Origin: Candidatus Pacearchaeota archaeon | Lineage (GTDB): Archaea; Nanobdellota; Nanobdellia; Pacearchaeales; GW2011-AR1 | Direction of reading: 5' to 3' | NCBI GenBank assembly: GCA_018304145.1 | Contig: JAGVWU010000001.1 | Span: forward strand, 144-64,143 | Length of the DNA stretch: 64,000 nt | Shown here: piece by piece, positions 37,885 to 60,671 of the stretch | Layout of the letters: each line of letters opens with the position of its first letter | Numbering within the stretch: the first letter of the stretch is position 1 | Position numbers and translations under genes: made by a program | Notes under the pieces: generated by a model | Told to the model about the DNA's origin: nothing | The model's input: only the letters and a program-made list of their open reading frames with translations | The model's database searches: none

Positions 37885-37928
37885 GTTGTGGACTTAATCC
37901 TTAGGATTAACTTATCGTGGGGGCGTTT
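37885..37928. repeat. TTGTGGAC + palindrome TTAATCCTTAGGATTAA (copy B) + TCGTGGGGGCGTTT (left copy of 14-bp direct repeat)
   Basis: Palindrome at 37894-37910 and 14-mer at 37915-37928, both read directly. Lies immediately upstream of the integrase gene. Confidence 0.6.
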
Positions 37929-37990: not shown

Positions 37991-39175
37991 ATGGAAGACA
38001 TACATAATTATAAACGAAGACTTGAAAGAACTCTCGAAAGGGTAAATAAACTTGATCTCTATCCAGAAGATAAGGAATTAATTTATAGATTCAAAGATCT
38101 TTGTATCTGTCAAAATATAAGTTATGGAAAATTAGATGCTTATCTATTCTATACAATAAAACTTACAAATTTCCTTCAAAAACCAATAAAGGAAGCCAAT
38201 AAAGAGGACATAATGAATGTTATAGCAAAACTTAATGAAACAAATTATAGTGAGCAAACCAAAAAATGTTTTAAAGTTTTACTTAAAAAATTATACAAAT
38301 ATATTAGAGGTATAGAAGGTAAAGGAGAATATCCTGAAGAGGTAAAATGGATGTCAACTACAATTTCTAGAAATCATCAAAAACTGCCTGATGAACTTAT
38401 TAATGAAAACGAAATAGAAAGTATTATTAGGGCTGCTCAAAATACGAGAGATAAAGCTTTAATTTCTATTCTTGCAGAATCAGGTTGCAGAGTTTCTGAA
38501 ATAGGTCTCATGAAAATAAAAAATGTTTCATTTGAAGAATATGGGACAAGAATAGCAGTTTCAGGAAAAACGGGATCAAGAAAAATATTAGTGATAAATA
38601 GTACACCTTATTTACAAGAGTGGATTAATCAACATCCATTAAATAACAATTCTGATTCTTTTCTATGGTACAATCCATTAAATAGCAAATATCTAAGTTA
38701 TACCCGAATTACCAGTATTCTAAAAACCGCAGCAAAAAGAGCAGGAATAAAGAAGAGAATTCATCCTCATTTGTTAAGGCATAGCAGAGCAACGAAAATG
38801 GCTACGGTAATGAGTGAAGCTTCCATGAAGCAATATTTTGGATGGACTCAGGGATCTTCAATGGCAGGAGTTTATGTTCATTTATCTGGAAAAGATACTG
38901 ATGATGCCATACTCAAAGCAAATGGAATTGAAATAACAAAAAAAGAAATGATTATAACAAAAATGAAACCTATTATTTGCAATAGATGTAAAACATCAAA
39001 CGAAGCAACAAATAGATTCTGTAAAATATGCGGTCTTCCTTTAACAAAGGAGATTGCAGAAGAAACAATAAAAGAAGATTCTGAAAAGAAAAAGTTTGAG
39101 GATATATTAGAAATTGCTTTATCGGATAAAAAAGTATTAGAAATGATTAAAGAGAAGATGAAAGTAATTTTATAG
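37991..39175 (+). CDS. tyrosine recombinase / integrase (XerC/D-phage integrase family) with C-terminal Zn ribbon
   Basis: Box I ESGCRVSEI (catalytic Arg), box II HPHLLRHSRATKMA (H-x-x-R-H) and catalytic Tyr in GVYVHL. C-terminal CNRCK...CKICG ribbon. Confidence 0.8.
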   Translation: MEDIHNYKRRLERTLERVNKLDLYPEDKELIYRFKDLCICQNISYGKLDAYLFYTIKLTNFLQKPIKEANKEDIMNVIAKLNETNYSEQTKKCFKVLLKKLYKYIRGIEGKGEYPEEVKWMSTTISRNHQKLPDELINENEIESIIRAAQNTRDKALISILAESGCRVSEIGLMKIKNVSFEEYGTRIAVSGKTGSRKILVINSTPYLQEWINQHPLNNNSDSFLWYNPLNSKYLSYTRITSILKTAAKRAGIKKRIHPHLLRHSRATKMATVMSEASMKQYFGWTQGSSMAGVYVHLSGKDTDDAILKANGIEITKKEMIITKMKPIICNRCKTSNEATNRFCKICGLPLTKEIAEETIKEDSEKKKFEDILEIALSDKKVLEMIKEKMKVIL

Positions 39176-45450: not shown

Positions 45451-46020
45451 TTATTCTTCCACTTTATTACCTCTCCAAAAATAAAGGTCTAGATAGCATC
45501 TATCACAGTTATATTCTTCGTTTGAAACTTGCTTAGCAAATTTTTGTAAATTATAGCTGTCTTCTTTTATTAAACTCTTAATATTATTCCATCTTAATTT
45601 TATTCCTTTTTGTTCTGCCATCTCAACTAATTTCTTTGCATTTGGATTGTCTAAAGGAACTTCTAAAAAAGGAATTATTTTATTTAACCCATACTCTTTA
45701 GAGAGAAATATATCGTGTGAAGACTGAAATAAGAATATGTTCAACGCTTTTCTTGCTATTCCCCAGCTTTTAGAATGAATTTTTTCTTTCAGAAGATTAG
45801 TCTGTTCATCTAGTTTATTTAAAAAATCAGATTCAGATAAAGTATTATTAAAAATATTGAGGTCAAAACTTTTTAGAAATTCTCTTGTTAAGTTTATTGT
45901 TCCAGTAGGTTGTCCTCGTAAGGTGGATGGACCTATTGAAATGTTTGATATTCTTTTTTGAACTAACTTTATAAATGATACCATTTTAATTATTCTTCCA
46001 TCTCTTCCCAAGCACACCAT
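45451..46020 (-). CDS. hypothetical protein (last gene of the R-M-linked operon)
   Basis: 189-aa ORF overlapping the upstream Cas4-like gene by about 30 nt. No motif recognised. Confidence 0.35.
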   Translation of the reverse strand: MVCLGRDGRIIKMVSFIKLVQKRISNISIGPSTLRGQPTGTINLTREFLKSFDLNIFNNTLSESDFLNKLDEQTNLLKEKIHSKSWGIARKALNIFLFQSSHDIFLSKEYGLNKIIPFLEVPLDNPNAKKLVEMAEQKGIKLRWNNIKSLIKEDSYNLQKFAKQVSNEEYNCDRCYLDLYFWRGNKVEE

Positions 46021-46661
46021 TCACATTCTCCATGCTCATGTTTTCTAGGACAAGGTCCATTAAGTAGTTTAATTGCTTTCTTCCAAATGTTCTCGGCGTT
46101 TTTTACATCTATTTTCATCTTAACAAGTTTAGTCTCGAAGATTACTTCTCCAGTTTCCTTGACTTCTTTTGGATAATAAAACAACAAGAAAGAATAATCT
46201 TCGGTTTCATAACCATTTTCCCTAAAAAGATAGTTGTAAAAATCAAGTTGGTTTTGATAATGTTTGTGTGTATCTTCCTTTAATGGAAACCCACGAGTTT
46301 TATAATCTAATATAATTATTTTCTTGCCTTTTGTTAAAAGATTGTCTATTGCACCGTGCAATATGTTACCTTCATTGTCCTTAATTGAAATACCTTTGAA
46401 GTTGCTTCTCCAAACTTTAAGCAACTCAACATCATTAAACAAATTACAGTCTTTGCATTCCTTGTTTTCTCGAAGTTCAGGGGGAAGTTTACCTTTCTCC
46501 ATAAATTTATCAAAATGCTTTTTTAGAATTGCATCCATTCCACTTGGAAGGGATGGGAATATTGTATCTGGTCTTTTTTTCTCTTTATTATAATGCAACC
46601 AGAAACATCTAGGGCAATCTTCTATTAAGGATAAAGATGATGGTGAGAGTTTATATGGCAT
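45990..46661 (-). CDS. Cas4/RecB-like PD-(D/E)xK nuclease with Fe-S Cys cluster
   Basis: N-terminal Cys (CPRCFW). Motif II GAIDNLL, motif III IIILDYKT (D-x-K) and a tyrosine-containing Q/Y-type motif. C-terminal CPRKHEHGECEWC supplies three further Cys. This arrangement is characteristic of Cas4/AddB-type nucleases. Confidence 0.55.
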   Translation of the reverse strand: MPYKLSPSSLSLIEDCPRCFWLHYNKEKKRPDTIFPSLPSGMDAILKKHFDKFMEKGKLPPELRENKECKDCNLFNDVELLKVWRSNFKGISIKDNEGNILHGAIDNLLTKGKKIIILDYKTRGFPLKEDTHKHYQNQLDFYNYLFRENGYETEDYSFLLFYYPKEVKETGEVIFETKLVKMKIDVKNAENIWKKAIKLLNGPCPRKHEHGECEWCAWEEMEE

Positions 46662-48929: not shown

Positions 48930-51923
48930 TTACTTTTTATTCAGCCTCTTGTACACTTTATCTAGCATCCAGTCTTTGACAGTTTCTGCAAAATCTTTGT
49001 CATCCATTATTTTCTTAAATATGTCTTGATTTTGCTCCATACGGTCTATAACCTTATTGATAAATACATCTTGAAAACCATATTTAAAGTTCTCAACAGA
49101 ATTTGTTTTTGCTTGTTTTGAAAGTTTTTCGTCAGCAACAAGTTCTTCTTCAATTTGGTCAAAAAATAGTTTATCTGCTTCTGTAAAATCTGTTCCAAAC
49201 CTTTCATTTAAAATCTTAATTATTTCTGAAAGTTTTGCATATTCTTCTTTTTCTTCTCTTACCCCTGCAGTATTAAGTGGTTTTAACCATCCTTCTTTTC
49301 CTTTTTCTAGTGATATACTTCCCTCATTTATTTTTTGAAGTCTGTAATATTCTAATGCAACTTCATCACCAAGTTTAAATCTTTCAGATAAATCTTTTCT
49401 AGGCAGTTTATTTACTAATAATCTTCCATAAGCATAAAACTTTTCTAAATCACTGTCTTGAAAAGGCATAATTTGGGATAAAAAAGAATATACTCTTAAG
49501 AAAACAGTCAACATATGTTTAAATTCCTCTTGTTTTTCTGTTTTATCTATTGCTCTAAATCTTGAAACTGCTGGGTCTATATACGAGTTTAATAATGAAT
49601 GGTCTTTAATTGATTGATATTTTGCTGATTTAAAAAACACTTTACAGAAGTTTTCGACATCTAACTTATCAATAACCCCTCTTTCTTCTATCTTATATTT
49701 TAAGTCATAGAGTTTATTTGGGTCTGTTGTTTCTTCAAGGAGTGTAATCTCATAATAGGGTTGGAAAGCATTAATTATATCTGAATCATCATTTACAAAA
49801 TCTAAAATAAAGGTATCTTCTTTTCCCGGACAAGTCCTATTTAATCTTGATAGAGTTTGAACTGCTTTTATTCCTGATAACTTTTTATCCACATACATAG
49901 TATGCAGAAGTGGTTGGTCATAACCTGTTTGATATTTATCAGCAACTAACAATAATTGGTATTCATTAGTATTAAATTTATCAGGAAGTTCTTTTTCACC
50001 AAACTGATTCATTTTTGGTTCTGTATATTCTTTTCCATCTTTTACTATTCCTGAAAATGCAACAATAGCCTTGATGTCGTTATATTTATTCTTTTTAAGA
50101 TAATCATCAAATTCTCTCTTGTACCTAACTACGTGAAGCCTTGAAGGAGTAATAACCATTGCTTTTGCCTTACCTCCAATTTTTTTCATTGTAACTTGTC
50201 TAAAATGCTCTATCATAACTTCTGTTTTTTGTGCGAGATTATGAGGATGTAAAGCAACAAATCTTGCTATCGCTCTTTTTGCCTTTTTCTTGTTTATTTT
50301 TGGGTCATCTTCGATTTGTTTGGATAATCTAAAGAAAGTTTGGTAGGTTGTATAATTTTTAAGAACATCTATAATGAAACCCTCTTCTATTGCCTGCCTC
50401 ATAGAATATAAATGAAATGGTTCTGGCTTTCCAGTTATTTTGTTTTTAACACCAAAAATTTCAAGGGTTTTTGCTTTTGGTGTTGCAGTAAATCCAAAAA
50501 AACTTAAATTTTTATGCATCCCTCTTGCTTCCATAGATTTTCTTATTTCATCTTCTGTATCTACTTGTTTTTCTAGTTCTGTTGAATCTTTTTTTATTGC
50601 TTCATCAAAATCTTTATAACTCAAGACTTCTTTCATTTTTTTAGATGCCTCTCCACCTTGTGAAGAGTGTACTTCATCTATAATCAGAGCATAATTTCTT
50701 TTTGGAAGTTCACCTATTGTTTCAATAATATAGGGGAATTTCTGTAAGGTTGTTATAATAATTTTTGTTCCAGACTTTAATGCTTCAGATAGTTGTTTGG
50801 AATTTTTATCTATTTTTTCAACTACTCCTTTTTTATGCTCAAACTGATAAATAGTATTTTGAAGTTGTTGGTCTAAAACTAATCTATCAGTAACTACAAT
50901 AATTGAATCAAATACAGGTTTGTCTTTTTTATTGTGCAAACTTGATAATCTATAAGCAAGCCACGCAATAGAATTACTCTTGCCACTTCCTGCTGAATGT
51001 TGAATCAAATAGTTTTTTCCAGTTCCATTTTCTTTTGTATCTGCCTCTAATTTTAGAACACAATCTAATTGATGGTAACGAGGAAAAAGCATTGATTCTT
51101 TTTTTATTGTTTTTCCTTCAATCTTAAATTCTTCAATTTGGATGTGCATAAACCTTCCAACAATATCCATAAAACTATCTCTCTCTAAAATTTCTTCCCA
51201 TAGATAAGAAGTTTTGTAACCTTTGGGATTTGAGGGATTTCCAGCACCATTTTCAAAGCCCTTATTAAATGGCAAGAACTTAACATCTCCTTCAAGTTTT
51301 GTTGTTAAAAAAATATTATCTGTATCAACAGCAAAATGAACTAATGCTCTTTTCTTAAACTGGAATATTAATTCATTGGGGTCGCGATCTTCTTTGAATT
51401 GTCTTTTTGCATTTTCAACATCTTGTCCTGTAAATTGATTTTTTAATTCAATTGTAGCGATAGGCAGTCCATTAATTGAAATCAACATATCAAGAGAATT
51501 TTCATTCTTCAAGCTGTATTTTACCTGTCGTGTCAAGGTCAACTTATTCATCTGATATAATTTTTCTGTCTGGGGATTTAACCCACTCGCAGGTCTAAAA
51601 AAAGCAATCTTAAATCTTACCCCATAATCAATAATTCCATTTCTTAAAACATCAAGTGTACCTCTGCTATCAAGTTCCTTAACTAATCTTTGTAAGAATT
51701 TTGTTTCAACATCTACTCTATGAATACCAGATAGTTTTTTCCATTCATTTGGTTGACTTTCTTTAATAAAAGAAAAAAGAACATTTGTATCCAATGCAAT
51801 TTCTTTATTGAAATCTTTTGCATTTCCTTTAAGAAAACCACCTTTATCTTTACCTGTTAAAAAATCCTCTATAGCTGTTTCAAAAGCTTTTTCATTTGTT
51901 ATTGACACCATCTTTTTATTCAC
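48930..51923 (-). CDS. hsdR: Type I restriction enzyme R subunit
   Basis: SF2 helicase motif I QHSAGSGKSNS and motif II IIDEVH. 997 aa. N-terminal nuclease region. Overlaps the hsdS 3' end. Confidence 0.85.
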   Translation of the reverse strand: MNKKMVSITNEKAFETAIEDFLTGKDKGGFLKGNAKDFNKEIALDTNVLFSFIKESQPNEWKKLSGIHRVDVETKFLQRLVKELDSRGTLDVLRNGIIDYGVRFKIAFFRPASGLNPQTEKLYQMNKLTLTRQVKYSLKNENSLDMLISINGLPIATIELKNQFTGQDVENAKRQFKEDRDPNELIFQFKKRALVHFAVDTDNIFLTTKLEGDVKFLPFNKGFENGAGNPSNPKGYKTSYLWEEILERDSFMDIVGRFMHIQIEEFKIEGKTIKKESMLFPRYHQLDCVLKLEADTKENGTGKNYLIQHSAGSGKSNSIAWLAYRLSSLHNKKDKPVFDSIIVVTDRLVLDQQLQNTIYQFEHKKGVVEKIDKNSKQLSEALKSGTKIIITTLQKFPYIIETIGELPKRNYALIIDEVHSSQGGEASKKMKEVLSYKDFDEAIKKDSTELEKQVDTEDEIRKSMEARGMHKNLSFFGFTATPKAKTLEIFGVKNKITGKPEPFHLYSMRQAIEEGFIIDVLKNYTTYQTFFRLSKQIEDDPKINKKKAKRAIARFVALHPHNLAQKTEVMIEHFRQVTMKKIGGKAKAMVITPSRLHVVRYKREFDDYLKKNKYNDIKAIVAFSGIVKDGKEYTEPKMNQFGEKELPDKFNTNEYQLLLVADKYQTGYDQPLLHTMYVDKKLSGIKAVQTLSRLNRTCPGKEDTFILDFVNDDSDIINAFQPYYEITLLEETTDPNKLYDLKYKIEERGVIDKLDVENFCKVFFKSAKYQSIKDHSLLNSYIDPAVSRFRAIDKTEKQEEFKHMLTVFLRVYSFLSQIMPFQDSDLEKFYAYGRLLVNKLPRKDLSERFKLGDEVALEYYRLQKINEGSISLEKGKEGWLKPLNTAGVREEKEEYAKLSEIIKILNERFGTDFTEADKLFFDQIEEELVADEKLSKQAKTNSVENFKYGFQDVFINKVIDRMEQNQDIFKKIMDDKDFAETVKDWMLDKVYKRLNKK

Positions 51924-53250
51924 TCCTTAAATCAATTTTACCTGTGACTGCCTCGTATATCAATGAAGTCTTATACTCATTTAATAGCTCTATCTCTTTT
52001 TCTATTTTACTAACGGTTTTATCTATTTTAGAGGTTTCGGTTTCAATGTAATATACAATTTGTTGTTGCTCTGGAAGGGGTGGAATAGGAATAAATATCT
52101 CTTTAACATTACTGCTATTTAAATGTGGATGGAGAGCTCCTGTTTGTATAGATTTTAAACTATGAAATCCAAAATTAGAATTTAAAAGAAAGGAAAAGAA
52201 TTTGCTATTAATAGTCTTTTTAGGTGTAATTAAAATAAGTGCGTGGCAATTACAACCTACAAATTCTTCATTTACTACTGCTACTTGACCAATATCCCCA
52301 GTTTGTACAATTAAAATATCATTTTTTTGTAAAATAGACCTTGAATGTTCATTTGACCATTCTTCAGAAACATAATAAGGATGATTGAATATAATTTGAT
52401 TGTTTTTAATATGCAATGATTGTATATATCTTATTCCCTTATCTTTTAGAATGTCTCTCGTTGGACCAACATAACCATTTGTAATTTTATCGCAAATCCT
52501 ACTAATTATTGAAGTTTCCCACTTTTCAGGTATAAATCCAATCCATTCTATTCCTGAATCTTTCATTTTTGCTTTTGTATTAATACCTTTTGTTACAGAA
52601 TTATTAATTAAAGATTGTCTTTTTTCTTTTAATAATTCAATTAATTTTTCTTTTTTAGAAACTAATTTTTCAATAAATAAAGTATATTTATCAAGATATT
52701 TTGATATTATTTCTTGTTCTTTAAGTGGAGGTAATATTACCAAAGCATTTCTAAATTCATCTCTACCCAAAATTTGTCTTGTAGTTCCCTTACAATTAGC
52801 AGAAAAATAAAAAAGAACATTAGGATTATTACACAAATATTTTTTATAAGAATGATTGACTTCATTTTTAAATTCAAATCTTAAAACGTGATAACTAAAT
52901 ACAGTATTGGGTAATTCACAATCAATAACAGCTGATAGTCCAATATCTATTTCTGTTTCAGAACTGGGGGTAAATATTAAATCTCCTTTTTTAACAGGAT
53001 GTTTTTCTTTTTGTTCTTCTGATACAGAAACAACCATATATTCCCTTTTATCATCTAAAACTTTATCCTTATTTCCATAAATATTCATATAATTAATCAT
53101 TTTTACTAACGGTTGATTGGGCAGTGTTTTTTTATCTATACCACTGGATGAAAATTTACCAATATTTCCTAATCTTGTCACATCCCAATCTTCAGGTATT
53201 TTTCCAACCCAATTAATTAAAGAATCCTTGTATTTTGGATATGGTTTCAT
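51916..53250 (-). CDS. hsdS: Type I restriction-modification specificity subunit
   Basis: Two target-recognition halves, each followed by a conserved LPPL(K/P)EQ(E/Q)xI repeat. N-terminal INWVGKIPEDWDV is typical of HsdS. Confidence 0.75.
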   Translation of the reverse strand: MKPYPKYKDSLINWVGKIPEDWDVTRLGNIGKFSSSGIDKKTLPNQPLVKMINYMNIYGNKDKVLDDKREYMVVSVSEEQKEKHPVKKGDLIFTPSSETEIDIGLSAVIDCELPNTVFSYHVLRFEFKNEVNHSYKKYLCNNPNVLFYFSANCKGTTRQILGRDEFRNALVILPPLKEQEIISKYLDKYTLFIEKLVSKKEKLIELLKEKRQSLINNSVTKGINTKAKMKDSGIEWIGFIPEKWETSIISRICDKITNGYVGPTRDILKDKGIRYIQSLHIKNNQIIFNHPYYVSEEWSNEHSRSILQKNDILIVQTGDIGQVAVVNEEFVGCNCHALILITPKKTINSKFFSFLLNSNFGFHSLKSIQTGALHPHLNSSNVKEIFIPIPPLPEQQQIVYYIETETSKIDKTVSKIEKEIELLNEYKTSLIYEAVTGKIDLRSE

Positions 53251-53251
53251 T

Positions 53252-54973
53252 TTATTTAATGATTTCTTTCATCATACCTTCAGTTTGTTTTTCTAATTCT
53301 AAAATATCTTTCTTTATTTGTTCAAGAGTTCTTAAAGGTTTAAATTCGTAGAAATATTTTGTAAAGCTTATTTCATATCCTTTTCTTGTTTTTGTTTCAT
53401 CAATCCAAGCATCAGGATTATAGGGTAAAACCTCTCTTTCGAAATACTTTTTTATATCTTCTTTAAGAGGAACATTTTCTGTATCTCTTAAATCTGAGTC
53501 TGATTTAGGTTTACCATTTTTATCTTTAACGACCTTCCCATTTTCAATCAAAGGTCTTTCAACTGTAATTTGCCAATATCCAAAATCCTCATTATCAAAA
53601 ATCTTACAATATTTATTTTCCTTGAAATCTCCATAGATATTTGTTATTTCTTCAATATGATTTTTTCCAATCTCATTTCTTTTGTTGCCTAAACTTTTTT
53701 TCATCTTATTATAAAAACTAATAGCATTAATCAATTGAACCTTTCCTTTTCTTTCTTTAGGTTTCCTATTTGTAACAATAAAAACATAAGTAAAAATCCC
53801 AGTATTATAGAAAAGTTGGTCAGGCATAGCAATAATTGCTTCAAGCCAGTCATTTTCAATTATCCATTTTCTTATATCACTTTCCCCACTTCCTGCACCA
53901 CCTGAAAATAATGGAGAGCCATTAAAAACAATACCAATTCTTGAACCACTATTTGAAGGTTTCATTTTAGAAATCATATGTTGCAAGAATAATAAAGAGC
54001 CATCACTGATTCTCGGAAGTCCTGCACCAAATCTTCCCTCAAATCCATTTTCTTCATACTCATTTTTAATCTGCTTTTCAACTTTTTTCCATTCAACTCC
54101 GAAAGGTGGATTTGAAAGCATATAATCGAACTTTTCATTTATTAACCCATCATTTGAAAAAGAATTTCCAAGAATAATATTTGACATATTCTGCCCTTTA
54201 ATTAACATATCAGATTTACATATAGCATAAGATTCAGGATTAAGTTCCTGACCAAAAACCTCAAGTCTTGAATCTGGATTAAATTCACGCAAATATTCTT
54301 CTGCAATGGATAACATTCCACCAGTTCCACAGGCAGGGTCATATAGCGTCTTGACAATTCCTTCTTTGGTAAGTATATCTTTATCATCCATAAACAAAAG
54401 ATTAACCATAAGTCTTATTACCTCTCTAGGTGTAAAATGCTCTCCTGCTGTTTCATTAGATAGTTCTGAAAACTTCCTAATCAACTCTTCAAAGATATAA
54501 CCCATCTGAATGTTGTTAACCTTACTGGGATGTAAATCAATTTCAGAAAACTTTTGTATAATCAGGTAAAGCAAGTCTGCCTCATCTAATTTGTTGATGT
54601 GTTCTTCAAATCCAAAGTGTTCTATTATCTCTCTTGCATTATCTGAAAATCCGTTTATGAAATCTTTAAGGTTTGCGGCAATATGTTCAGGGTCGGATTT
54701 AAATTTTTCAAAAGTGAACTTGCTCTTGTTATGAAAGTTTAACCCTGCAATGTTGTTCAATACTGGGTCTATGTTTTGAATTTTCTTTTCTTTTATTTTT
54801 GGAAGATAATCCAAGACCTTTTGTTTGGTTGGTTCAAGAACACAATCCAGCCTTCTTAAAATTGTTAGGGGAAGAATTACTTTGCCATAGTCTGCCTGTT
54901 TATAATCACCTCTTAATAAATCTGCAACACTCCAGATAAAGTTCGCTAAATCATTTACTTTTATTTGTTCCAT
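53252..54973 (-). CDS. hsdM: Type I restriction-modification N6-adenine DNA methyltransferase subunit
   Basis: N-terminal HsdM domain (FIWSVADLLRGDYK), SAM motif I DPACGTGGML and catalytic NPPFG. Start placed at MEQIKVNDL. The upstream ORF start at 55039 is less likely. Confidence 0.85.
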   Translation of the reverse strand: MEQIKVNDLANFIWSVADLLRGDYKQADYGKVILPLTILRRLDCVLEPTKQKVLDYLPKIKEKKIQNIDPVLNNIAGLNFHNKSKFTFEKFKSDPEHIAANLKDFINGFSDNAREIIEHFGFEEHINKLDEADLLYLIIQKFSEIDLHPSKVNNIQMGYIFEELIRKFSELSNETAGEHFTPREVIRLMVNLLFMDDKDILTKEGIVKTLYDPACGTGGMLSIAEEYLREFNPDSRLEVFGQELNPESYAICKSDMLIKGQNMSNIILGNSFSNDGLINEKFDYMLSNPPFGVEWKKVEKQIKNEYEENGFEGRFGAGLPRISDGSLLFLQHMISKMKPSNSGSRIGIVFNGSPLFSGGAGSGESDIRKWIIENDWLEAIIAMPDQLFYNTGIFTYVFIVTNRKPKERKGKVQLINAISFYNKMKKSLGNKRNEIGKNHIEEITNIYGDFKENKYCKIFDNEDFGYWQITVERPLIENGKVVKDKNGKPKSDSDLRDTENVPLKEDIKKYFEREVLPYNPDAWIDETKTRKGYEISFTKYFYEFKPLRTLEQIKKDILELEKQTEGMMKEIIK

Positions 54974-55110
54974 ACCCAAACACCTATTATTATTACTATA
55001 ATAGGTTCTATTTAAAGTTATTTTAGACCATTTAGCCACCTAGTGCAAAGCTTTGCTTCTTATGGCGGCTTTTTTATATTTTTTGTTAATTTTATATTAT
55101 ATAAAATGGA

Positions 55111-55139: not shown

Positions 55140-58127
55140 TTAGCTATTTAAAAATAGTTTTTCAATTTTATTTTGAATATATCTATTATCAGTTGTTTCT
55201 GCTAAGTTTGAATAGGAAGGACCTATTTTTTTATTAGTCATAACAAAAAACCAATTTTTTCCATAAAGTTTATTATTATTCTTTACTTTTTCCATTAATG
55301 CTTTTCTGTTTGTTTCTAAAGTTTTCCCAGTTTCAACTTCTATTGCATATTTTTGACCTTTTACTTCAAATATAATGTCTGGTTTTATAGTTTCATACAT
55401 TTTTACTTTGTCAGTAAATTTTTTAATGAAGTAATATAGCTGATAACACATAAAAGCATGAGGAAGGCTTTCATTAGATCTTGGAAAAACCATATATCTT
55501 TGTAATTTTTTTGTTTTAAAACTTTTTGCTTCAAATTGTTTATAACCTTTTGATTCAAGATAAATTATATCTTCTGTAGATAGTTTGCTCATTCTAAAAA
55601 TACCTCTTTCTTCGTTTAGAGTTATATTAATTTCTTTTTGCTCTTGTTTTATTGGTTTTTGTTCAATTGGTTTTTTATTATTTTTTAAAAGTATTTCATC
55701 TGCATTAGTAGTTATTATTTCATGCTCTTTTTCAGAAGCTACTATTTTTATTTTAGAGTGATCATCTTCCATTATAAGAAGCCCTTCTCCAACCATTGCT
55801 GTTAATAATAAAACTCTTTCAGAACCGCTTAAATGAAATATTTTTTGTATACTTTCTATTACAGCAGGTTTTTGTCTTAATAATAATGTGTAAGAACTGT
55901 TTGCTAAAACAGATCTTCCAGCCTTGGAGTTTAACATATCTTCTACTTCTTGATTGATTAAGAATAGCCCCATATTAAATTTTCTACAGGTTTTAACTAT
56001 TTCAAATAAGTAAGAAGAATCTTGAGATCTTGAAAGTAAAGCCCATGCTTCATCAATAACTAATATTTTTCTTTTAAGATCTCTTTTCATTTTTGTGTAA
56101 ACATAATCTAGAACAAGAAACATCATAGTTGGTTTAATTTGTCTAGGTAATTTTCCAATATCAAAACAAATAAAATCATTATCAAAATTAATGTTTGTAT
56201 GTTGATCAAGAAAAGAAAAAACTCCTTTAACATAAATATTCATCCTATTAATTAAACTTCTTATAGATATTTTTTCAAGACTTGTAGCTCTTTTTTCCAT
56301 TATTATCAATCGCTTTAATACATCTTGCATTCTTGGAGGGGCATATTCCCAAGTTCGAGGATTATTCATAATAATTCCTTTTTTCTCATAAGCGTCTGTT
56401 AATGCTTTGTCAAGAAATGTTTTTTGAGGCTCTGATAAATCACCTAACATTATGGGCATTAATTCCATTAATGCAAGACGCTTTTCAGGATAAGTATGAC
56501 CCATTAAATCTAATGGATTTATTATTGTATCAGAATCTCTTGCTAAATCTATTCTTTGACCTTGAAACTTTTCAACAAGACCTGCATACTCTCCCTGAGG
56601 GTCAATTATGATTACTTTTGTTCCGCTTAATAAATGTCTTGAAATTAATAATTTTGCAAGATAACTTTTTCCTGATCCAGAAGAAGCCAAACAGACTCCA
56701 TTTGCATTGGATAATTTGAATATATCTCTTATAATTGGAATATTACTTTTTCCAAGACCAAGCCAAATACCTGTAGGGTCAAATTTAAAGAACTGAGTTG
56801 TAAATGGAAAAAATGCAGATAGTGCAGAAGTAGGAATATTTCTTTTAACATTAAGAGAATTATCAATGAATGGGAGACAAGATTTGTATCCTTGAACCAT
56901 TCTAAACAATGGTTGTCTTGGAATTATTAACATTGAGTTTAATTCTGATTCAACTGTTTTTGTTAAGAGGTCAAGTTCTTTTTTACTGGGGGCTTGACAA
57001 TTGATAAATAAACTTACATTAAATAGTCGTTCTTCTCCTTTTTGTAGATTTTCAAGAATTCCTAAAGTGTCTCTATATTTAATTTCAAGACTAGGATTTA
57101 ATTGATTCTTTATTTTTGCTGAATATAAATCTGCTCTTTGTTTTTGTAGTTCTTTATTTAAGTTTACCATTGTTGTTTCAATGTTACTCGTTTCTATTTG
57201 TATTGAAATGTTAAAATTTCCAGAAAAACTGATTAGTCTATCTAAAAATCCAGTTTCAACTTTTCTTGGGTAACCATGAGCATAAATTGTACGATAAAAT
57301 TTTCCATCAATTTCTAAGTGATCAATATTATTCTTTATTTCTCTTGGAAGAATAGAAATATTATTTCCGGCATAAAATATTTGCCTAAATAAACTATCAA
57401 AATCATTTTTGTTCAATCTTTTTGTTTTAAGATGTAAACTGTTTAATCTTTCTTCACAAATCTTAACTTGATTTTCAATATTAGTTGTTTCCTGGATAAC
57501 TACATAAAAATTTCTATTCAAAACTTTATTTTTTGAAATCAACTCTACTAAATGAGTTTTATATTCTTCATAAATTGCCATATTTTCTTCTGATTGATTA
57601 ATATTTTCTTTTAGATTATCAAGATAACTTTCTAAAGAAAGTTCTTCAGTGGTTATTAAAATCTGAAGTGGAAAATCAAGTGAATTAAGAAATTTTTGAA
57701 ATGATAATGTTATTGCCTCTTGCTCATTTGTTGGTTTTATCTGAAAATTTAATGATTCAACTTTTAATACTGCTAATTTTTTCTTGTTAGAATAAATTAC
57801 TTCTTTTTCTATATTATCCAGTCTAATAAGATTTTGAATATCTTTTTGCTTATTTATATGCCTAAATCTATACCAGCTTATCCAATTTTTCAGATGTTCT
57901 AAAAAATTAAAGAAAATAAAACCTATTCCTATCAAAGCAGGTATTAAAGCTAAAAATATTCTTATATATAAGTTAAAATGAAAACTAAAAATAATAAAAA
58001 GTGATATTGGAAAAAATAAAAAAGCCCATACTAATTGCTTAAAATCAAGCCCAAAAACAATTATTTCCTTATATTCAAGTTGTTGAGGTATTTCATACAT
58101 ATTATATTGCTCCAATAGTTTTTGCAA
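55140..58127 (-). CDS. VirB4/TrbE-family conjugation ATPase with C-terminal restriction-endonuclease-like (PD-(D/E)xK) domain
   Basis: N-terminal TM helices. Walker A LASSGSGKSYLAKLL and Walker B ILVIDEAWALL in the C-terminal half, as in VirB4. A final ~130-aa domain carries KPDIIFEVKGQKYAIEVETG (hhhD...ExK / IEVE), resembling Hjc/NERD/Mrr-type nuclease cores. Confidence 0.6.
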   Translation of the reverse strand: MQKLLEQYNMYEIPQQLEYKEIIVFGLDFKQLVWAFLFFPISLFIIFSFHFNLYIRIFLALIPALIGIGFIFFNFLEHLKNWISWYRFRHINKQKDIQNLIRLDNIEKEVIYSNKKKLAVLKVESLNFQIKPTNEQEAITLSFQKFLNSLDFPLQILITTEELSLESYLDNLKENINQSEENMAIYEEYKTHLVELISKNKVLNRNFYVVIQETTNIENQVKICEERLNSLHLKTKRLNKNDFDSLFRQIFYAGNNISILPREIKNNIDHLEIDGKFYRTIYAHGYPRKVETGFLDRLISFSGNFNISIQIETSNIETTMVNLNKELQKQRADLYSAKIKNQLNPSLEIKYRDTLGILENLQKGEERLFNVSLFINCQAPSKKELDLLTKTVESELNSMLIIPRQPLFRMVQGYKSCLPFIDNSLNVKRNIPTSALSAFFPFTTQFFKFDPTGIWLGLGKSNIPIIRDIFKLSNANGVCLASSGSGKSYLAKLLISRHLLSGTKVIIIDPQGEYAGLVEKFQGQRIDLARDSDTIINPLDLMGHTYPEKRLALMELMPIMLGDLSEPQKTFLDKALTDAYEKKGIIMNNPRTWEYAPPRMQDVLKRLIIMEKRATSLEKISIRSLINRMNIYVKGVFSFLDQHTNINFDNDFICFDIGKLPRQIKPTMMFLVLDYVYTKMKRDLKRKILVIDEAWALLSRSQDSSYLFEIVKTCRKFNMGLFLINQEVEDMLNSKAGRSVLANSSYTLLLRQKPAVIESIQKIFHLSGSERVLLLTAMVGEGLLIMEDDHSKIKIVASEKEHEIITTNADEILLKNNKKPIEQKPIKQEQKEINITLNEERGIFRMSKLSTEDIIYLESKGYKQFEAKSFKTKKLQRYMVFPRSNESLPHAFMCYQLYYFIKKFTDKVKMYETIKPDIIFEVKGQKYAIEVETGKTLETNRKALMEKVKNNNKLYGKNWFFVMTNKKIGPSYSNLAETTDNRYIQNKIEKLFLNS

Positions 58128-58932
58128 CGATTGCGGTTTTTGCGATAGGTCCCATGACTTTAGAAGCCGCTTTAATCAATACAAAAAGCAAAAGGACAAA
58201 AGTAGAGATTATCACAAGATCAAAAGATCCTATAACAATTAAAATTTTTATATCGCTTAAAGAATTAAGTAGTAATAATCTTGAAGCAGTTAAGAATATC
58301 AAAGAGTAAAAAAATGGTAGAAAGATTAAAACCATTAATCCATTTATTATAAGTTTGCCGTAATTATGCAGAGGACTAATAAAATAAAAGAATATACCTA
58401 TTGCAAAAAATATAACTCCTGAACTAACAGCAATATATCTAATCATAAGAATCAATGATGTAATAATCAAATGAATAATGTATAAACCTAAAAATATTAT
58501 TTCTAAAGCTAGATTGGAAAAACTTTCAGATGTATAATTAAAAAAATCATTTCCAGCTATATTCAATACTCCTTTTGTTAATCCTGATGAGATCAAAAGA
58601 ATTAATTCATAAATATAATAACTGGTCTGAACCAGAACTATCATTATTAAAGTATTTTTTAAAGAGGTTTTTGCTTTTTCTCTTTCTTCTGGACTTTCTC
58701 CAGATATAATAAATTTGAATCCTATCCAAATTAGCAGTAAACCATAAAATAAAGATAAAACATAAATAATAACTCCCCAGACATCTGCAAATATTGAAAT
58801 ATTTACAGGTTCTGATAAGAGTTTATAATTAAGATTCAGGAAGGGTTGTAGAGCCATGTTGATTAAATCTACGATAAAACCAAACAAGTACTCTATAACA
58901 CAACCTCCCGGATCTGTAATGCTGCAACTCAT
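58102..58932 (-). CDS. polytopic membrane protein (VirB6/TrbL-like candidate) with TrbC-like N-terminal motif
   Basis: Seven or more predicted TM helices. N-terminal IISGESPEEREKAKTSLKNTLIMIVLV is paralogous to the adjacent 123-aa protein. Confidence 0.4.
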   Translation of the reverse strand: MSCSITDPGGCVIEYLFGFIVDLINMALQPFLNLNYKLLSEPVNISIFADVWGVIIYVLSLFYGLLLIWIGFKFIISGESPEEREKAKTSLKNTLIMIVLVQTSYYIYELILLISSGLTKGVLNIAGNDFFNYTSESFSNLALEIIFLGLYIIHLIITSLILMIRYIAVSSGVIFFAIGIFFYFISPLHNYGKLIINGLMVLIFLPFFYSLIFLTASRLLLLNSLSDIKILIVIGSFDLVIISTFVLLLFVLIKAASKVMGPIAKTAIVAKTIGAI

Positions 58933-58933
58933 T

Positions 58934-59263
58934 TTAATTTCCTAAAATCAGCTTAACCACAAAAGGAGCTGCCCAGATAACCATCAGACCTATGATAACA
59001 TACATTACCATATTTTTTGCTTTCTCTCTTTTTCCTGGATCTGATCCACTCATTATATAAGTGATTCCAGCAAACAACAATACTAGACCTGCAATCATTG
59101 TGACTGCATATTTTACAAGGTCGTAAATTGTTTGTAATGGTTTTAGTATTTGGTCAAAATCGCTATTTGATGCAGCTAAAATAAAACTAATCTGAAACAA
59201 AAGCAATACAAATAAAAAACAATAAATCAACAATGCTTTGTTTTTTGGTTTTCCTTGTGCCAT
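58934..59263 (-). CDS. VirB2/TrbC-like pilin-like small membrane protein
   Basis: About 110 aa with an N-terminal signal/TM segment, a mature region and a second hydrophobic helix (MSGSDPGKREKAKNMVMYVIIGLMVIWAAP). This topology matches TrbC/VirB2 pilins. Confidence 0.4.
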   Translation of the reverse strand: MAQGKPKNKALLIYCFLFVLLLFQISFILAASNSDFDQILKPLQTIYDLVKYAVTMIAGLVLLFAGITYIMSGSDPGKREKAKNMVMYVIIGLMVIWAAPFVVKLILGN

Positions 59264-59463
59264 TTTATTACCTCCTGAAATTTTTTCTTTTCTTTGTACT
59301 TGCAACTTAAAACATTAAAGCAAGTCTTGCAAAAGTCTGCTTCATCTGTTCTAAGTTCCTTTCCGCATAAGATGCATTTTTTCATGAAAACTTTATTTTT
59401 GAGAACTTTATATAATACCGAGTGAAACTTTTTGTACAAAATTTTGTACAAAAAATTGTACAA
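59227..59463 (-). CDS. small Zn-ribbon protein (tentative)
   Basis: CILCGKEL...CKTCF four-Cys ribbon in a 78-aa ORF. Overlaps the start of the downstream gene. Confidence 0.25.
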   Translation of the reverse strand: MYNFLYKILYKKFHSVLYKVLKNKVFMKKCILCGKELRTDEADFCKTCFNVLSCKYKEKKKFQEVIKWHKENQKTKHC

Positions 59464-59633
59464 TCTTTTTCACTCGGACATATTTAAGAAGTATAATTTT
59501 ACCTTTTTTATGCAAAATCAAAATAATGATTCAAAAAATAAAGAAAAGAAAGACGAGTTAAATAACGAGAATAAAACTTCTCTTCCAAAATGGATTCTAA
59601 TTTTAAAAAAAGCGTTAGAGGAGGATAAAAATA

Positions 59634-60671
59634 ATGATTCCAATAAATAAAATCTATAATTGTGAGGTATTAGAAGGATTAAAAAAATTACCTGATAACT
59701 CAATTGATTGCATAGTCACAAGTCCTCCCTATTGGAATCTTAGAGATTATAGAGTTGATAGTCAAATTGGTTTAGAAAATCATCCTGACGAATATATTAG
59801 AAAAATTATTGATATTATGAAAGAATTTAGAAGAGTTCTAAAACCAACTGGGACAATTTGGTTAAATCTTGGTGATTCATATTATAAAAATAAAGGAAGA
59901 GATTGTAAATCTAATTGGCTTCAGCATAAACAGAAACTCCTTATTCCTTTTAGAGTTGCTATTAAATGCCAAGATGATTTAGGTTTGATTCTTAGAAACG
60001 ATATAACCTGGATTAAACAATGGTGCAATTTTAAAACAAAAGATTCAGCCGGAAGTGTTACACCCACATCTGTAAAAGACAGATTAAATACTCATTCTGA
60101 ATCAATTTTCTTTTTTGTTAAAGATAAAAAATATTATTTTAATATTGATAAAATAAAAATTCCATGCAGAGATTTAAAAATTAAAACTGGAAAAAATCCT
60201 GGTGATTCAATTATTTTTCCTTTAGAACCAAGTAGAGAGAAACATTATGCAATGTTTCCAAAAACACTGCCTGAATTTTGCATTAAAGCTGGTTGCCCTG
60301 AAATGGTCTGTAAAAAATGTGGAACTCCCTTATTAAAAATAAAAGTTGGAGGAAATATTAATTCATTTAATTTTAGAGTGAGGGACGTTAAAAAAGGTAG
60401 AATCAAAAGTTTGGATAGAAGAGCTTCTTCAAAAGAGACTAAAAAATATAATGAAAAGAGTTATATGCCTAAATCTAAAGAAAAAATCATCCTGGCTTGT
60501 TCCTGCAATTCTGGGTTTAAACCAGGGATTGTTTTAGATCCTTTCATGGGTTCTGGAACAACTGCATTAGTTGCTAAAAGACTAAACAGAAATTTTATTG
60601 GTTTTGAATTAAACAAAGATTATCTTAAAATTATTGAGAAAAGACTATCTCAGGAGTTTTCTAATGAATAA
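59634..60671 (+). CDS. beta-class DNA methyltransferase (N4-cytosine or N6-adenine), orphan
   Basis: Motif IV IVTSPPYW precedes motif I DPFMGSGTT, the beta-class order. An internal CKKCGTPLL insertion is present. No obvious cognate restriction enzyme adjacent. Confidence 0.8.
   Translation: MIPINKIYNCEVLEGLKKLPDNSIDCIVTSPPYWNLRDYRVDSQIGLENHPDEYIRKIIDIMKEFRRVLKPTGTIWLNLGDSYYKNKGRDCKSNWLQHKQKLLIPFRVAIKCQDDLGLILRNDITWIKQWCNFKTKDSAGSVTPTSVKDRLNTHSESIFFFVKDKKYYFNIDKIKIPCRDLKIKTGKNPGDSIIFPLEPSREKHYAMFPKTLPEFCIKAGCPEMVCKKCGTPLLKIKVGGNINSFNFRVRDVKKGRIKSLDRRASSKETKKYNEKSYMPKSKEKIILACSCNSGFKPGIVLDPFMGSGTTALVAKRLNRNFIGFELNKDYLKIIEKRLSQEFSNE

What the first reader, a model, noticed from the sequence alone, without database searches (positions are those of the whole stretch)
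55140..58127. VirB4/TrbE-like conjugation ATPase carries a C-terminal restriction-endonuclease-like nuclease domain
The Walker A (GSGKS) and Walker B (DEAW) boxes and the N-terminal TM helices fit VirB4. The last ~130 residues form a separate domain with KPDIIFEVKGQKYAIEVETG, a PD-(D/E)xK / Hjc / NERD-like core. A nuclease fused to the type IV secretion motor ATPase is atypical. It could process transferred DNA or act as an exclusion or defense function.
Basis: partly seen in the sequence, partly recalled or inferred. Interest (0 to 1): 0.6.

Follow-up and report, generated by a model that had tools for sequence, protein, structure and literature searches.

The report
VirB4 secretion motor fused to nuclease
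A DPANN archaeon's type IV secretion motor (VirB4) carries at its tail a well-folded, strictly conserved DNA-cutting domain of a so far unnamed family, which may be the missing DNA-processing enzyme of archaeal DNA transfer systems.

Summary
ORF 55140-58127(-) encodes a 995-aa VirB3-like/VirB4 ATPase. After a flexible linker it ends in an independently folded domain of about 155 aa (AF2 pLDDT 92) with PD-(D/E)xK nuclease topology. The catalytic signature is E886...P916-D917...E930-x-E932, the rare BamHI-type ExE variant rather than ExK.

H890, D917, E930, E932 and G934 are invariant in 188 diverse copies. The domain matches no Pfam or NCBIfam family. Its nearest relatives, all sub-threshold, are the CoiA competence nuclease and AHJR-like families. 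It is not Hjc, NERD, Mrr or a MOB_C relaxase.

The fusion is the rule in Pacearchaeota/Woesearchaeota VirB4s (118 of 120 top homologues). It sits in a minimal module of pilin, VirB6-like protein and VirB4-nuclease, often with a divergent DNA methylase, and with no VirD4-like ATPase or relaxase found nearby.

The same domain also occurs split from VirB4 (L005). It also occurs as 2TM-coiled-coil-anchored or stand-alone proteins directly beside tyrosine integrases at island edges (14 of 21).

Best reading: an active, motor-tethered DNA-processing endonuclease of an archaeal DNA-transfer apparatus. Whether it acts on the donor or the recipient side is unresolved. I found no prior description. New variant of a known kind; interest about 0.6.

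The parts
55140..58127 (-). Whole ORF: VirB3-like TM hairpin + VirB4 ATPase + linker + nuclease tail (995 aa from TTG; the likely true start is the ATG at 58100, giving 986 aa; stop codon 55140-55142)
57912..58043 (-). N-terminal TM hairpin (residues 29-48 and 53-72), VirB3/PrgI-like
   Evidence: AF2 helices; weak PrgI hit, E 0.009, residues 13-86, below cut-off
55707..57830 (-). VirB4 body (residues ~100-807): TraC-like N-domain plus P-loop ATPase. Walker A at 56664-56678, Walker B at 56043-56054
55611..55706 (-). K/E/Q/N-rich flexible linker (residues 808-839)
   Evidence: pLDDT below 50 for 808-825 in the full-length model; variable and gap-rich among homologues; composition
55488..55601 (-). 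Small beta-alpha-beta-beta module at the start of the tail (residues 843-880), possibly DNA-binding
   Evidence: AF2 secondary structure; conserved L849, Y856, L857, K874, E876; function inferred only
55143..55478 (-). PD-(D/E)xK nuclease core (residues 884-995), topology alpha-beta-beta-beta-alpha-beta. E886-S-x-x-H890 = 55458-55472; P916-D917 = 55377-55382; E930-V-E932-T-G = 55326-55340; K947 = 55287-55289
58102..58932 (-). Polytopic membrane protein directly upstream (276 aa), VirB6/TrbL-like position in the operon
   Evidence: T4SS_pilin hit 2.9e-7 over residues 55-101; the equivalent gene in L005 hits TrbL_3 weakly; this cluster is present in 45 of 60 fused loci
58934..59305 (-). TrbC/VirB2-type T4SS pilin (109-123 aa)
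   Evidence: T4SS_pilin 2.6e-15, TrbC 1.1e-10; within 6 kb in 46 of 64 fused loci
59634..60671 (+). N6_N4 DNA methyltransferase, transcribed divergently from the pilin gene; a recurrent syntenic partner
   Evidence: N6_N4_Mtase 1.1e-46; upstream in 20 of 43 loci with enough flank, 18 of them divergent

Best explanation
The tail is a catalytically active, metal-dependent PD-(D/E)xK endonuclease with a BamHI-type E...D...ExE site. A flexible linker of about 30 residues holds it at the cytoplasmic base of a minimal archaeal type IV secretion-like DNA-transfer machine made of a VirB2 pilin, a VirB6-like channel protein and VirB3-VirB4. As VirB4 oligomerises, several nuclease domains hang beside the channel entrance and cut the DNA substrate there. 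In this way they supply the DNA-processing step (nicking or end generation) that relaxases, delivered by a VirD4 coupling protein, supply in bacterial conjugation. My preferred version is donor-side. An integrated element is excised by its tyrosine integrase, nicked or cut by the tethered nuclease, and fed directly into the motor, which makes both a separate relaxase and a coupling ATPase unnecessary. The unfused, membrane-anchored copies encoded next to integrases would be the equivalent 'mobilisation' gene of islands that borrow the machine.

Shown: the domain architecture, the fold class, conservation of the catalytic-type residues, and the gene contexts. Inferred: catalytic activity, DNA as the substrate, the direction of transfer, and the relaxase-like role.
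For: Fold and active site. The AF2 model of the tail has pLDDT 92.4 and alpha-beta-beta-beta-alpha-beta topology. The top Foldseek matches in PDB and BFVD are almost all PD-(D/E)xK nucleases. D917 lies at the start of beta2 and E930-x-E932 on beta3, the canonical positions. H890, D917, E930, E932 and G934 are invariant in 188 of 188 complete domains, E886 in 183 of 188, and K947 is K or R in 187 of 188. An E/D/ExE site is catalytically competent in BamHI and OkrAI (PMC3025578).

Link to the T4SS. The domain is fused to VirB4 in 118 of 120 closest homologues and in 64 of 85 genome and metagenome loci. In L005 a tail-less VirB4 is followed, with overlapping stop and start, by a 2TM + coiled-coil + tail protein, i.e. 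a split version. The pilin and VirB6-like genes are adjacent. No second VirB4/VirD4-like ATPase or relaxase family was found in the window or among the conserved neighbours.

Link to mobile DNA. 14 of 21 unfused copies lie within 300 bp of a tyrosine recombinase gene, in some cases right after a tRNA gene. 11 of 64 fused modules have an integrase 2-5 kb upstream. R-M cargo is frequent. Fused and unfused tails are intermixed by sequence.

Precedents. MOB_C relaxases are PD-(D/E)XK enzymes, and no relaxase is known for archaeal conjugative plasmids or for Ced/Ted (PMC12857230; PMC9905601).
Against: The nearest sequence and structure relatives are CoiA-type competence nucleases, which act on imported DNA, not MOB_C relaxases: Replic_Relax was hit by only 1 of 36 tails at E 0.25. 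The composition (VirB2 + VirB6 + VirB4, no VirD4) matches the Ced/Ted import systems as well as it matches a donor machine. No oriT-like site or element boundaries were found in the window. Most fused loci (53 of 64) show no integrase within the 8-kb flanks. The substrate of these DPANN T4SSs is unknown and need not be DNA.
Confidence: 0.45

Rival explanations
1. Recipient-side processing. The machine imports DNA, like Ced/Ted. The tethered nuclease then works on the incoming strand, either as a CoiA-like structure-specific endonuclease that resolves recombination intermediates, or as a degradative nuclease that turns host DNA into nucleotides for a DPANN cell that cannot make them.
For: The minimal VirB2 + VirB6-like + VirB4 composition without VirD4 or relaxase equals Ced/Ted (PMC9905601). 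The most recurrent Pfam signal is CoiA_nuc (6 of 36 tails, best E 4.6e-4), covering the catalytic core at 17.7 bits against a 20.3-bit cut-off. The best BFVD structural match is a phage 'Competence protein'. CoiA is an experimentally shown PD-(D/E)XK structure-specific endonuclease with an atypical signature that acts on imported DNA (bioRxiv 10.1101/2024.02.06.579203). Nucleotide-auxotrophic episymbionts with T4SS pili have been proposed to take host nucleic acids (bioRxiv 10.64898/2026.06.21.733656).
Against: All CoiA similarity is sub-threshold, and CoiA's zinc-finger N-domain and C-domain are absent. The tight pairing of unfused copies with integrases at island edges, the multiple copies per genome and the R-M cargo look like mobile-element biology rather than a housekeeping uptake or salvage system. 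A purely degradative role does not explain the conserved small beta-alpha-beta-beta module or the membrane-anchored paralogues.
Confidence: 0.3
2. Restriction or entry exclusion. The tail is the endonuclease partner of the syntenic DNA methyltransferase. Tethered at the channel, it cleaves unmethylated DNA that enters, while the cell's own DNA is protected by methylation.
For: An N6_N4 methyltransferase is upstream in 20 of 43 fused loci, 18 of them divergent from the pilin gene, and directly follows an unfused tail gene in L088. The ExE signature is otherwise known from type II enzymes of the BamHI group. The window's own tail gives one weak PADLOC hit (PDC-S05, E 2.5e-4) and two other tails give weak REase_II hits (E 0.005-0.01). 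Type I R-M and other defence genes flank many loci.
Against: The methylase is missing from about half of the fused loci and from nearly all unfused ones (1 of 21). The tail is conserved at 30-50% identity with many invariant non-catalytic residues across a huge clade, unlike the fast-diverging specificity of restriction enzymes. The PADLOC signal is in 1 of 36 members only. Methylases are also common anti-restriction cargo of conjugative elements (own knowledge).
Confidence: 0.12
3. Non-catalytic module. The domain keeps the nuclease fold but serves as a DNA-binding or substrate-docking adaptor, a degenerate nuclease, because the canonical lysine is replaced by glutamate.
For: Loss of the ExK lysine. 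Swapping Lys and Glu at this position severely reduces cleavage in BamHI (Glu113 to Lys) and in EcoRV and EcoRI (Lys to Glu) (PMC3025578). No biochemical data exist.
Against: All four acidic positions plus H890 are essentially invariant in 188 sequences across three architectures. Degenerate nuclease folds usually lose such positions. The same E/D/ExE set is active in BamHI and OkrAI.
Confidence: 0.08
4. Toxin or abortive-infection effector. A HerA/VirB4-type ATPase controls a nuclease effector, as in HerA-associated defence systems, and the machine is not a DNA conduit.
For: Foldseek lists HerA-NurA, HerA-Sir2 and DndH among the more distant ATPase matches. The locus lies among R-M genes.
Against: The ATPase is a complete VirB4 with the TraC-like N-domain and a VirB3-like hairpin, and it is co-operonic with a VirB2 pilin and a VirB6-like protein. 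PADLOC finds no system-level match.
Confidence: 0.05

Closest known systems
VirB4/TraC ATPases of monoderm-type (MPF-FATA) T4SSs, and the archaeal Ced/Ted DNA-import systems (CedB/TedB with VirB2-like and VirB6-like partners)
   Same: Complete VirB4 architecture and fold. The operon carries a VirB2/TrbC pilin and a polytopic VirB6-like protein. As in Ced/Ted, there is no VirD4 and no relaxase nearby.
   Different: None of those carries a C-terminal nuclease. Sequence similarity to the Ced ATPase model is marginal (NF053655 CedD, E 1.2e-7, far below cut-off). The best NCBIfam models are bacterial ICE VirB4s, also below their equivalog cut-offs. The host is DPANN (Pacearchaeota), not Thermoproteota.
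CoiA competence nuclease (Pfam CoiA_nuc PF06054)
   Same: PD-(D/E)xK core with a non-canonical catalytic signature. It begins with an E-S-x-x-H-type helix and continues with PD and an (I/V)E-x-(E/Q) beta strand. It has the best recurrent Pfam signal and the best viral structure match. It acts on DNA that has crossed a membrane through an uptake machine.
   Different: All scores are below the gathering threshold (at most 17.7 against 20.3 bits). The CoiA zinc-finger N-domain and C-domain are missing. CoiA is a soluble stand-alone bacterial protein, not fused to a motor.
BamHI/OkrAI type II restriction endonucleases
   Same: The same rare catalytic constellation, Glu...Asp...Glu-x-Glu, on the PD-(D/E)xK scaffold, with a two-metal mechanism in BamHI.
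   Different: No detectable sequence similarity, and BamHI is not among the top 50 fold matches. Those are soluble, sequence-specific dimers with a cognate methylase. The tail is conserved across a whole clade and tethered to a membrane machine.
MOB_C relaxases (TraX of pAD1, MobC of CloDF13)
   Same: PD-(D/E)XK-fold enzymes that prepare DNA for T4SS transfer without a covalent intermediate. This is the functional analogy of the best explanation.
   Different: No reproducible sequence signal (Replic_Relax in 1 of 36 tails, E 0.25). MOB_C proteins are separate soluble proteins recruited through a coupling protein. Homology is not supported.
HerA-NurA and other FtsK/HerA-superfamily ATPase-nuclease pairs
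   Same: A hexameric translocase of the same ATPase superfamily working with a nuclease on the DNA it moves.
   Different: NurA has an RNase H-like fold and is a separate subunit. HerA is soluble and is not part of a membrane channel.

Membership tests
VirB4/TraC T4SS ATPase | P-loop ATPase core with Walker A and Walker B | tested here: met
   GSGKS 484-488 and DEAW 692-695; P-loop_TraG 1.6e-24, AAA_10 and DUF87 all above their cut-offs
VirB4/TraC T4SS ATPase | Full-length VirB4 fold including the N-terminal domain | tested here: met
   Foldseek to R388 TrwK/VirB4 at E 4e-23 over ~830 columns; 28-30% identity to the T. pseudethanolicus VirB4 C-domain; PF26593 TraC-like on the N-terminal part. 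NCBIfam VirB4 models hit at 5.8e-93 and 4.2e-89 but below their equivalog cut-offs
VirB4/TraC T4SS ATPase | Encoded with other T4SS parts (VirB2 pilin, VirB6-like, VirB3) | tested here: met
   TrbC/T4SS_pilin gene and a polytopic membrane gene lie directly upstream. Pilin is within 6 kb in 46 of 64 loci. The VirB3/PrgI-like N-terminal hairpin is only weakly supported (E 0.009)
PD-(D/E)xK nuclease superfamily | Alpha-beta-beta-beta-alpha-beta core fold | tested here: met
   AF2 pLDDT 92.4 with that order of elements. Top PDB and BFVD Foldseek matches are nearly all PD-(D/E)xK proteins, but each is weak (best E 1-2e-3, TM 0.3-0.45)
PD-(D/E)xK nuclease superfamily | Acidic residue at the start of beta2 (PD) and (D/E)-x-K on beta3 | tested here: inconclusive
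   P916-D917 and E930 are present and invariant. The third position is E932, not K. This is the BamHI-type variant, active in BamHI and OkrAI
PD-(D/E)xK nuclease superfamily | Catalytic residues converge on one metal site; nuclease activity | not testable with these tools
CoiA_nuc (PF06054) | Score at or above the Pfam gathering threshold (20.3 bits) | tested here: not met
   6 of 36 tails hit, best E 4.6e-4. Best listed scores are 17.7 and 15.3 bits, covering profile positions 1-57, the catalytic core
CoiA_nuc (PF06054) | CoiA architecture (N-terminal zinc finger, C-terminal extension) | tested here: not met
   The tail has a Cys-free beta-alpha-beta-beta module in front of the core and nothing after it. 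CoiA architecture as described in bioRxiv 10.1101/2024.02.06.579203
Hjc / AHJR-like archaeal Holliday junction resolvases | Family HMM above threshold; E...D...E-x-K signature | tested here: not met
   AHJR-like in 3 of 36 tails, best E 0.01. P0272 scores 16.7 bits against a 26.1-bit cut-off. Hjc structures align over only 72-80 columns at E 0.1-0.5. The lysine is replaced by E932
NERD / Mrr_cat | Family HMM match | tested here: not met
   Neither family is among the 25 most frequent listed for the 36 tails at E<=10, nor in the full tables of the window tail at E<=1 or of ten tail-only proteins at E<=0.5
MOB_C relaxases (PD-(D/E)XK relaxases) | Sequence membership. The only relaxase-type Pfam family that gave any signal was Replic_Relax PF13814 | tested here: not met
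   1 of 36 tails, E 0.25. Whether PF13814 fully represents MOB_C was not verified
MOB_C relaxases (PD-(D/E)XK relaxases) | Site-specific nicking at an oriT | not testable with these tools
   No oriT is defined, and no conserved repeat was found in the window
Ced/Ted DNA-import systems | VirB2-like + VirB6-like + VirB4-like genes without VirD4 or relaxase | tested here: met
   composition as defined in PMC9905601
Ced/Ted DNA-import systems | Sequence relatedness to CedB/TedB; import of DNA | tested here: not met
   Only NF053655 CedD at E 1.2e-7 and 30.8 bits, against a 600-bit cut-off. The direction of transfer is not testable
Type II restriction-modification pair | Nuclease always accompanied by a cognate methyltransferase | tested here: inconclusive
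   The methylase is upstream in 20 of 43 fused loci but in only 1 of 21 unfused loci

The most novel reading that the evidence does not exclude
The tail is the archaeal counterpart of a relaxase. It would be a PD-(D/E)xK nickase physically fused to the VirB4 motor, replacing both the relaxase and the VirD4 coupling protein. The membrane-anchored copies encoded next to tyrosine integrases would mark a hidden population of mobilisable genomic islands in DPANN archaea that use the same machine. That would define a new mode of conjugative DNA processing.
Probability: 0.25. Interest if true: 0.85.

Novelty: new variant of a known kind. Interest (0 to 1): 0.62.

Why it matters
How archaeal DNA-transfer machines (conjugative plasmids, Ced, Ted) generate and handle their DNA substrate is an acknowledged gap. 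No relaxase homologue has been found (PMC9905601; PMC12857230). Here a strictly conserved nuclease domain is welded to the motor ATPase itself, across a large clade of ultra-small, host-dependent archaea. The same domain travels with integrases. This yields a concrete, testable candidate for the missing DNA-processing activity. It also defines a new, unannotated PD-(D/E)xK family with the rare ExE active site. Finally, it gives a sequence marker (E-S-x-x-H...PD...ExETG...WFFVVT) for finding T4SS modules and integrated islands in DPANN genomes, and it bears on whether these episymbionts exchange, export or consume DNA.

Tried and rejected
(1) MOB_C/Replic_Relax lead. The window tail gave PF13814 at E 0.25, but only 1 of 36 tails does so. 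Rejected as homology and kept only as a functional analogy.

There are no hits or only sub-threshold ones.

(3) A profile search of PDB sequences found nothing relevant: one spurious PCNA hit at E 0.31.

(4) tblastn of the tail against 72,556 plasmids and 50,697 phage genomes found no match at E<=1.

(6) att-like direct repeats bracketing the integrase-to-T4SS region (34-64 kb) were sought, but only short AT-rich imperfect matches turned up. The promoter and terminator scan was no better than shuffles.

(7) A second tail copy, or a second VirB4/VirD4-like ATPase, in the window: none.

(8) The idea that 'tail-only' ORFs next to integrases are target-site duplications of the virB4 3' end. Rejected because they contain the entire ~160-residue domain and many have their own TM and coiled-coil N-termini.

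(9) The idea that the unfused 2TM proteins always accompany a tail-less VirB4. This is true only in L005, with a fragment in L081.

(10) The tail as the strict partner of the methylase. The association is too incomplete.
Full report
OBSERVATION. The ORF at 55140-58127 (minus strand) is real: 995 aa from a TTG start. Public gene calls for the identical protein, named 'ATP-binding protein, Candidatus Pacearchaeota archaeon', start nine codons later at the ATG at 58100, giving 986 aa. Walker A (GSGKS, residues 484-488) and Walker B (DEAW, 692-695) are present, and the quoted tail motif is residues 915-934.

Residues ~13-805 are a VirB4/TraC-type ATPase. The evidence is Pfam P-loop_TraG (1.6e-24), AAA_10 and DUF87, and NCBIfam VirB4_plasma (5.8e-93) and the CD1110 family (4.2e-89). 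A full-length AF2 model (pLDDT 76) matches R388 TrwK/VirB4 at E 4e-23 over about 830 columns. Two N-terminal TM helices (29-48, 53-72) give a weak PrgI/VirB3-like signal.

THE TAIL IS A SEPARATE, FOLDED, CONSERVED DOMAIN. No Pfam or NCBIfam model matches residues 830-995. The extra Pfam label that homologues carry in a newer release (PF26593) is 'TraC-like' and lies N-terminal to the ATPase core.

With a 36-sequence alignment, AF2 folds the tail at pLDDT 92.4 and pTM 0.86. In the full-length model it follows a low-confidence K/E/Q/N-rich linker (808-839). The order of elements is:
- a small beta-alpha-beta-beta module (843-880);
- a helix starting at E886-S-x-x-H890;
- a short strand;
- a strand preceded by P916-D917;
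- a strand carrying E930-V-E932-T-G;
- helices carrying K947;
- a strand WFFVMT (959-964);
- a helix with Y972, then a last strand and helix.

This is the PD-(D/E)xK topology, with the acidic residues at their canonical places.

Foldseek against PDB returns almost only PD-(D/E)xK proteins: YaeQ, the Cdn1/Can2 nuclease domains, NucS/EndoMS, R.BspD6I, McrC, TnsA, Hjc, RecU and Mus81. All are weak (best E 2e-3, TM 0.3-0.4). Against viral models the best match is a phage 'Competence protein' (E 1.2e-3, probability 1.0, 167 columns).

Conservation is strict. In 188 complete domains drawn from 1.84 billion representatives and from reference genomes, H890, D917, E930, E932 and G934 never vary. E886 is kept in 183, and K947 is K or R in 187.

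The signature is therefore E...PD...ExE, not ExK. BamHI (E77, D94, E111, E113) and OkrAI use exactly this set with two metals, and it is rare among restriction enzymes (PMC3025578). I could not measure the spatial clustering of the residues because model coordinates are not exposed.

FAMILY ASSIGNMENT. Scanning all 36 tails one by one, the most recurrent Pfam signal is CoiA_nuc (6 of 36, best E 4.6e-4), then AHJR-like (3 of 36). Replic_Relax appears once, and NERD and Mrr_cat are not among the families listed.

In tail-only relatives, CoiA_nuc aligns from profile position 1 to about 57 onto the stretch S-x-x-H...KPD...AIEIE. That is the catalytic core, at 15-18 bits against a 20.3-bit cut-off. 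CoiA was recently shown to be a structure-specific PD-(D/E)XK endonuclease with an atypical signature that resolves D-loops during natural transformation (bioRxiv 10.1101/2024.02.06.579203).

So the tail is a new, unannotated PD-(D/E)xK family whose nearest neighbour is CoiA_nuc. It is not a member of CoiA_nuc, Hjc, NERD, Mrr or MOB_C. Unfused members carry no Pfam label at all, even in the newer release.

DISTRIBUTION AND ARCHITECTURES. Of the 120 closest VirB4 homologues (53-68% identity; Pacearchaeota, Woesearchaeota, Nanoarchaeota), 118 keep the tail. A scan of one genome per species found 80 loci. All come from DPANN assemblies, apart from a few bins labelled Methanosarcinales or Gammaproteobacteria, which are probably mis-binned. 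Some genomes hold two or three copies. Nothing similar exists in the plasmid or phage collections.

There are three architectures:
- fused to VirB4 (64 of 85 locus ORFs);
- one to four (mostly two) N-terminal TM helices, a K/E-rich coiled-coil-like linker, then the tail (270-420 aa);
- the tail alone (160-240 aa).

By the positive-inside rule, the basic stretch after TM2 places the tail of the anchored form in the cytoplasm, as in the VirB4 fusion (inference).

In L005 a tail-less VirB4 (856 aa, 64% identical to the query over 83% of it) is followed, with overlapping stop and start, by a 377-aa 2TM + linker + tail protein. This is a natural split of the fusion. By identity clustering, tails of the three architectures are intermixed, so the domain has moved between contexts repeatedly. 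One caveat: some short ORFs may be contig-end fragments.

GENE CONTEXT. In the window, the operon on the minus strand reads TrbC/VirB2 pilin (58934-59305), polytopic VirB6-like protein (58102-58932), then VirB4-nuclease. An N6_N4 DNA methylase (59634-60671) is transcribed divergently, and a type I R-M system (hsdM, hsdS, hsdR; 48930-55039) lies downstream.

Across 60 independent fused loci the recurrent neighbours are:
- pilin and VirB6-like proteins: 45 loci;
- the small methylase: 27 loci (upstream in 20 of 43 loci with enough flank, 18 divergent from the pilin);
- a Cys-rich surface protein of about 405 aa with a C-terminal TM: 27 loci (absent from the window);
- a protein of about 64 aa with weak ribbon-helix-helix hits (CopG, NikA-like): 17 loci;
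- type I R-M genes: 9-11 loci;
- a tyrosine integrase 2-5 kb upstream: 9-11 loci.

No second VirB4/VirD4-like ATPase or relaxase-type family appears among the conserved neighbours or in the window.

The unfused copies behave differently. 14 of 21 lie within 300 bp of a tyrosine-recombinase gene, and these recombinases belong to two families. Three examples on long contigs all read integrase, then 13-20 bp, then the tail gene, then methylases, Fic or R-M genes, next to housekeeping genes. In L090 and L027 a tRNA gene lies immediately before the integrase.

The window itself is chromosomal, with aCPSF1/FttA, Rad50-Mre11, RNase J and the CCA-adding enzyme. A tyrosine integrase sits at 37991-39175. 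I could not define element borders.

MECHANISM. Shown: a VirB4 motor with a tethered, independently folded PD-(D/E)xK domain whose catalytic-type residues are under strict selection; a physical and genomic link to a minimal T4SS; and a link of the same domain to integrases and island edges.

Inferred: the domain is an active metal-dependent endonuclease that works on the DNA handled by the machine. I favour a DNA-processing role (confidence about 0.45). Because VirB4 oligomerises, several nuclease domains on linkers of about 30 residues would surround the cytoplasmic mouth of the channel, where they could nick or cut the substrate and hand it to the motor. This would explain the absence of both relaxase and coupling protein.

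PD-(D/E)XK relaxases (MOB_C) are a functional precedent, and the lack of any known archaeal relaxase is an acknowledged gap (PMC12857230; PMC9905601). The integrase-tail pairs would then be the analogue of the integrase-plus-mobilisation-gene modules of mobilisable islands.

The main rival (about 0.3) is recipient-side action on imported DNA, either CoiA-like resolution of recombination intermediates or degradation for nucleotide salvage. It is favoured by the Ced/Ted-like composition and the CoiA affinity. A restriction or exclusion role with the syntenic methylase (about 0.12), a non-catalytic adaptor (about 0.08) and a defence-effector role (about 0.05) are less likely, for the reasons listed under rivals.

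NOVELTY. Full-text searches found no description of a VirB4-nuclease fusion or of this domain family. The closest discussion concerns nanohaloarchaeal 'SPEARE' giant proteins with a VirB4-like domain, where a claimed endonuclease domain was later disputed (PMC10266531). That is a different protein.

The components are of known kinds: a VirB4 and a PD-(D/E)xK nuclease. The combination, the new family with an ExE site, and its second life next to integrases make this a new variant of a known kind. Interest is 0.62. A specialist would be moderately surprised, and the finding gives a direct experimental handle on how archaeal T4SS-like machines process DNA.

Noticed in passing
L087-L091 and genome loci L027, L029, L036, L037, L050, L053, L058, L060, L061, L067, L070, L071, L074, L075, L084: Unfused copies of the tail domain (2TM + coiled-coil + tail, or tail alone) form a tight two-gene module with a tyrosine recombinase (gaps of 3-300 bp; two integrase families). 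The modules sit at the edge of islands carrying methylases, Fic and R-M genes. In L090 and L027 a tRNA gene directly precedes the integrase.
   Followed up: partly
window 48930-55039 (-): A complete type I restriction-modification system (hsdM 53252-55039, hsdS 51916-53250, hsdR 48930-51923) lies immediately downstream of the VirB4-nuclease gene. Type I R-M genes recur near the fused gene in 9-11 of 60 related loci.
   Followed up: partly
window 59634-60671 (+) and 59513-59650 (+): An N6_N4 DNA methyltransferase is transcribed divergently from the pilin gene, preceded by a 46-aa ORF that overlaps its start. A methylase in this position recurs in 18 of 43 related loci. In 17 of 60 loci a protein of about 64 aa with weak ribbon-helix-helix hits (CopG, NikA-like) lies upstream of the module, nearly always on the opposite strand. 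The window's 46-aa ORF gave no Pfam hit.
   Followed up: partly
related loci (e.g. L066 3-1220; L005 2378-3709): A Cys-rich, probably extracellular protein of about 405-443 aa with a C-terminal TM helix lies between the pilin and the VirB6-like gene in 27 of 60 fused loci. It is absent from this window. It has no Pfam match and could be an adhesin or pilus-tip protein.
   Followed up: no
window 37991-39175 (+): A tyrosine integrase (Phage_integrase 9.3e-24) lies 16 kb from the T4SS module. Between them are a TrmB regulator, a metallophosphoesterase, an AAA_33 kinase, an AF_0896_M-domain protein and a PDDEXK_1/Cas4-like nuclease (45990-46661). This is possibly one integrated island, but no att repeats were found.
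   Followed up: partly
window 36909-36929 and 37894-37914: Two copies (95% identical) of a 21-nt sequence containing the palindrome TTAATCCTTAGGATTAA flank the minus-strand gene 36989-37855, just upstream of the integrase gene.
   Followed up: no
window 17720-21210 (-): A Rad50-like (695 aa) and Mre11-like metallophosphoesterase (393 aa) gene pair lies about 35 kb from the T4SS module. Rad50/HerA genes were noted next to Ted systems in Thermoproteales (PMC9905601). Here the distance suggests coincidence.
   Followed up: no
window 58100 vs 58127: The mechanical ORF starts at a TTG (58127) and overlaps the upstream gene by 26 nt. Public gene calls use the ATG at 58100, which begins right after the upstream gene's stop and is the more likely start.
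   Followed up: yes
genome loci L018, L031, L043, L044, L053, L057, L061, L064, L067: Several contigs carrying this DPANN-type gene belong to bins labelled 'uncultured Methanosarcinales' or 'Gammaproteobacteria'. Protein P0050 is named as from 'Methanococcoides sp. SA1'. These are probably mis-binned or contaminating DPANN contigs, although transfer to hosts cannot be excluded.
   Followed up: no
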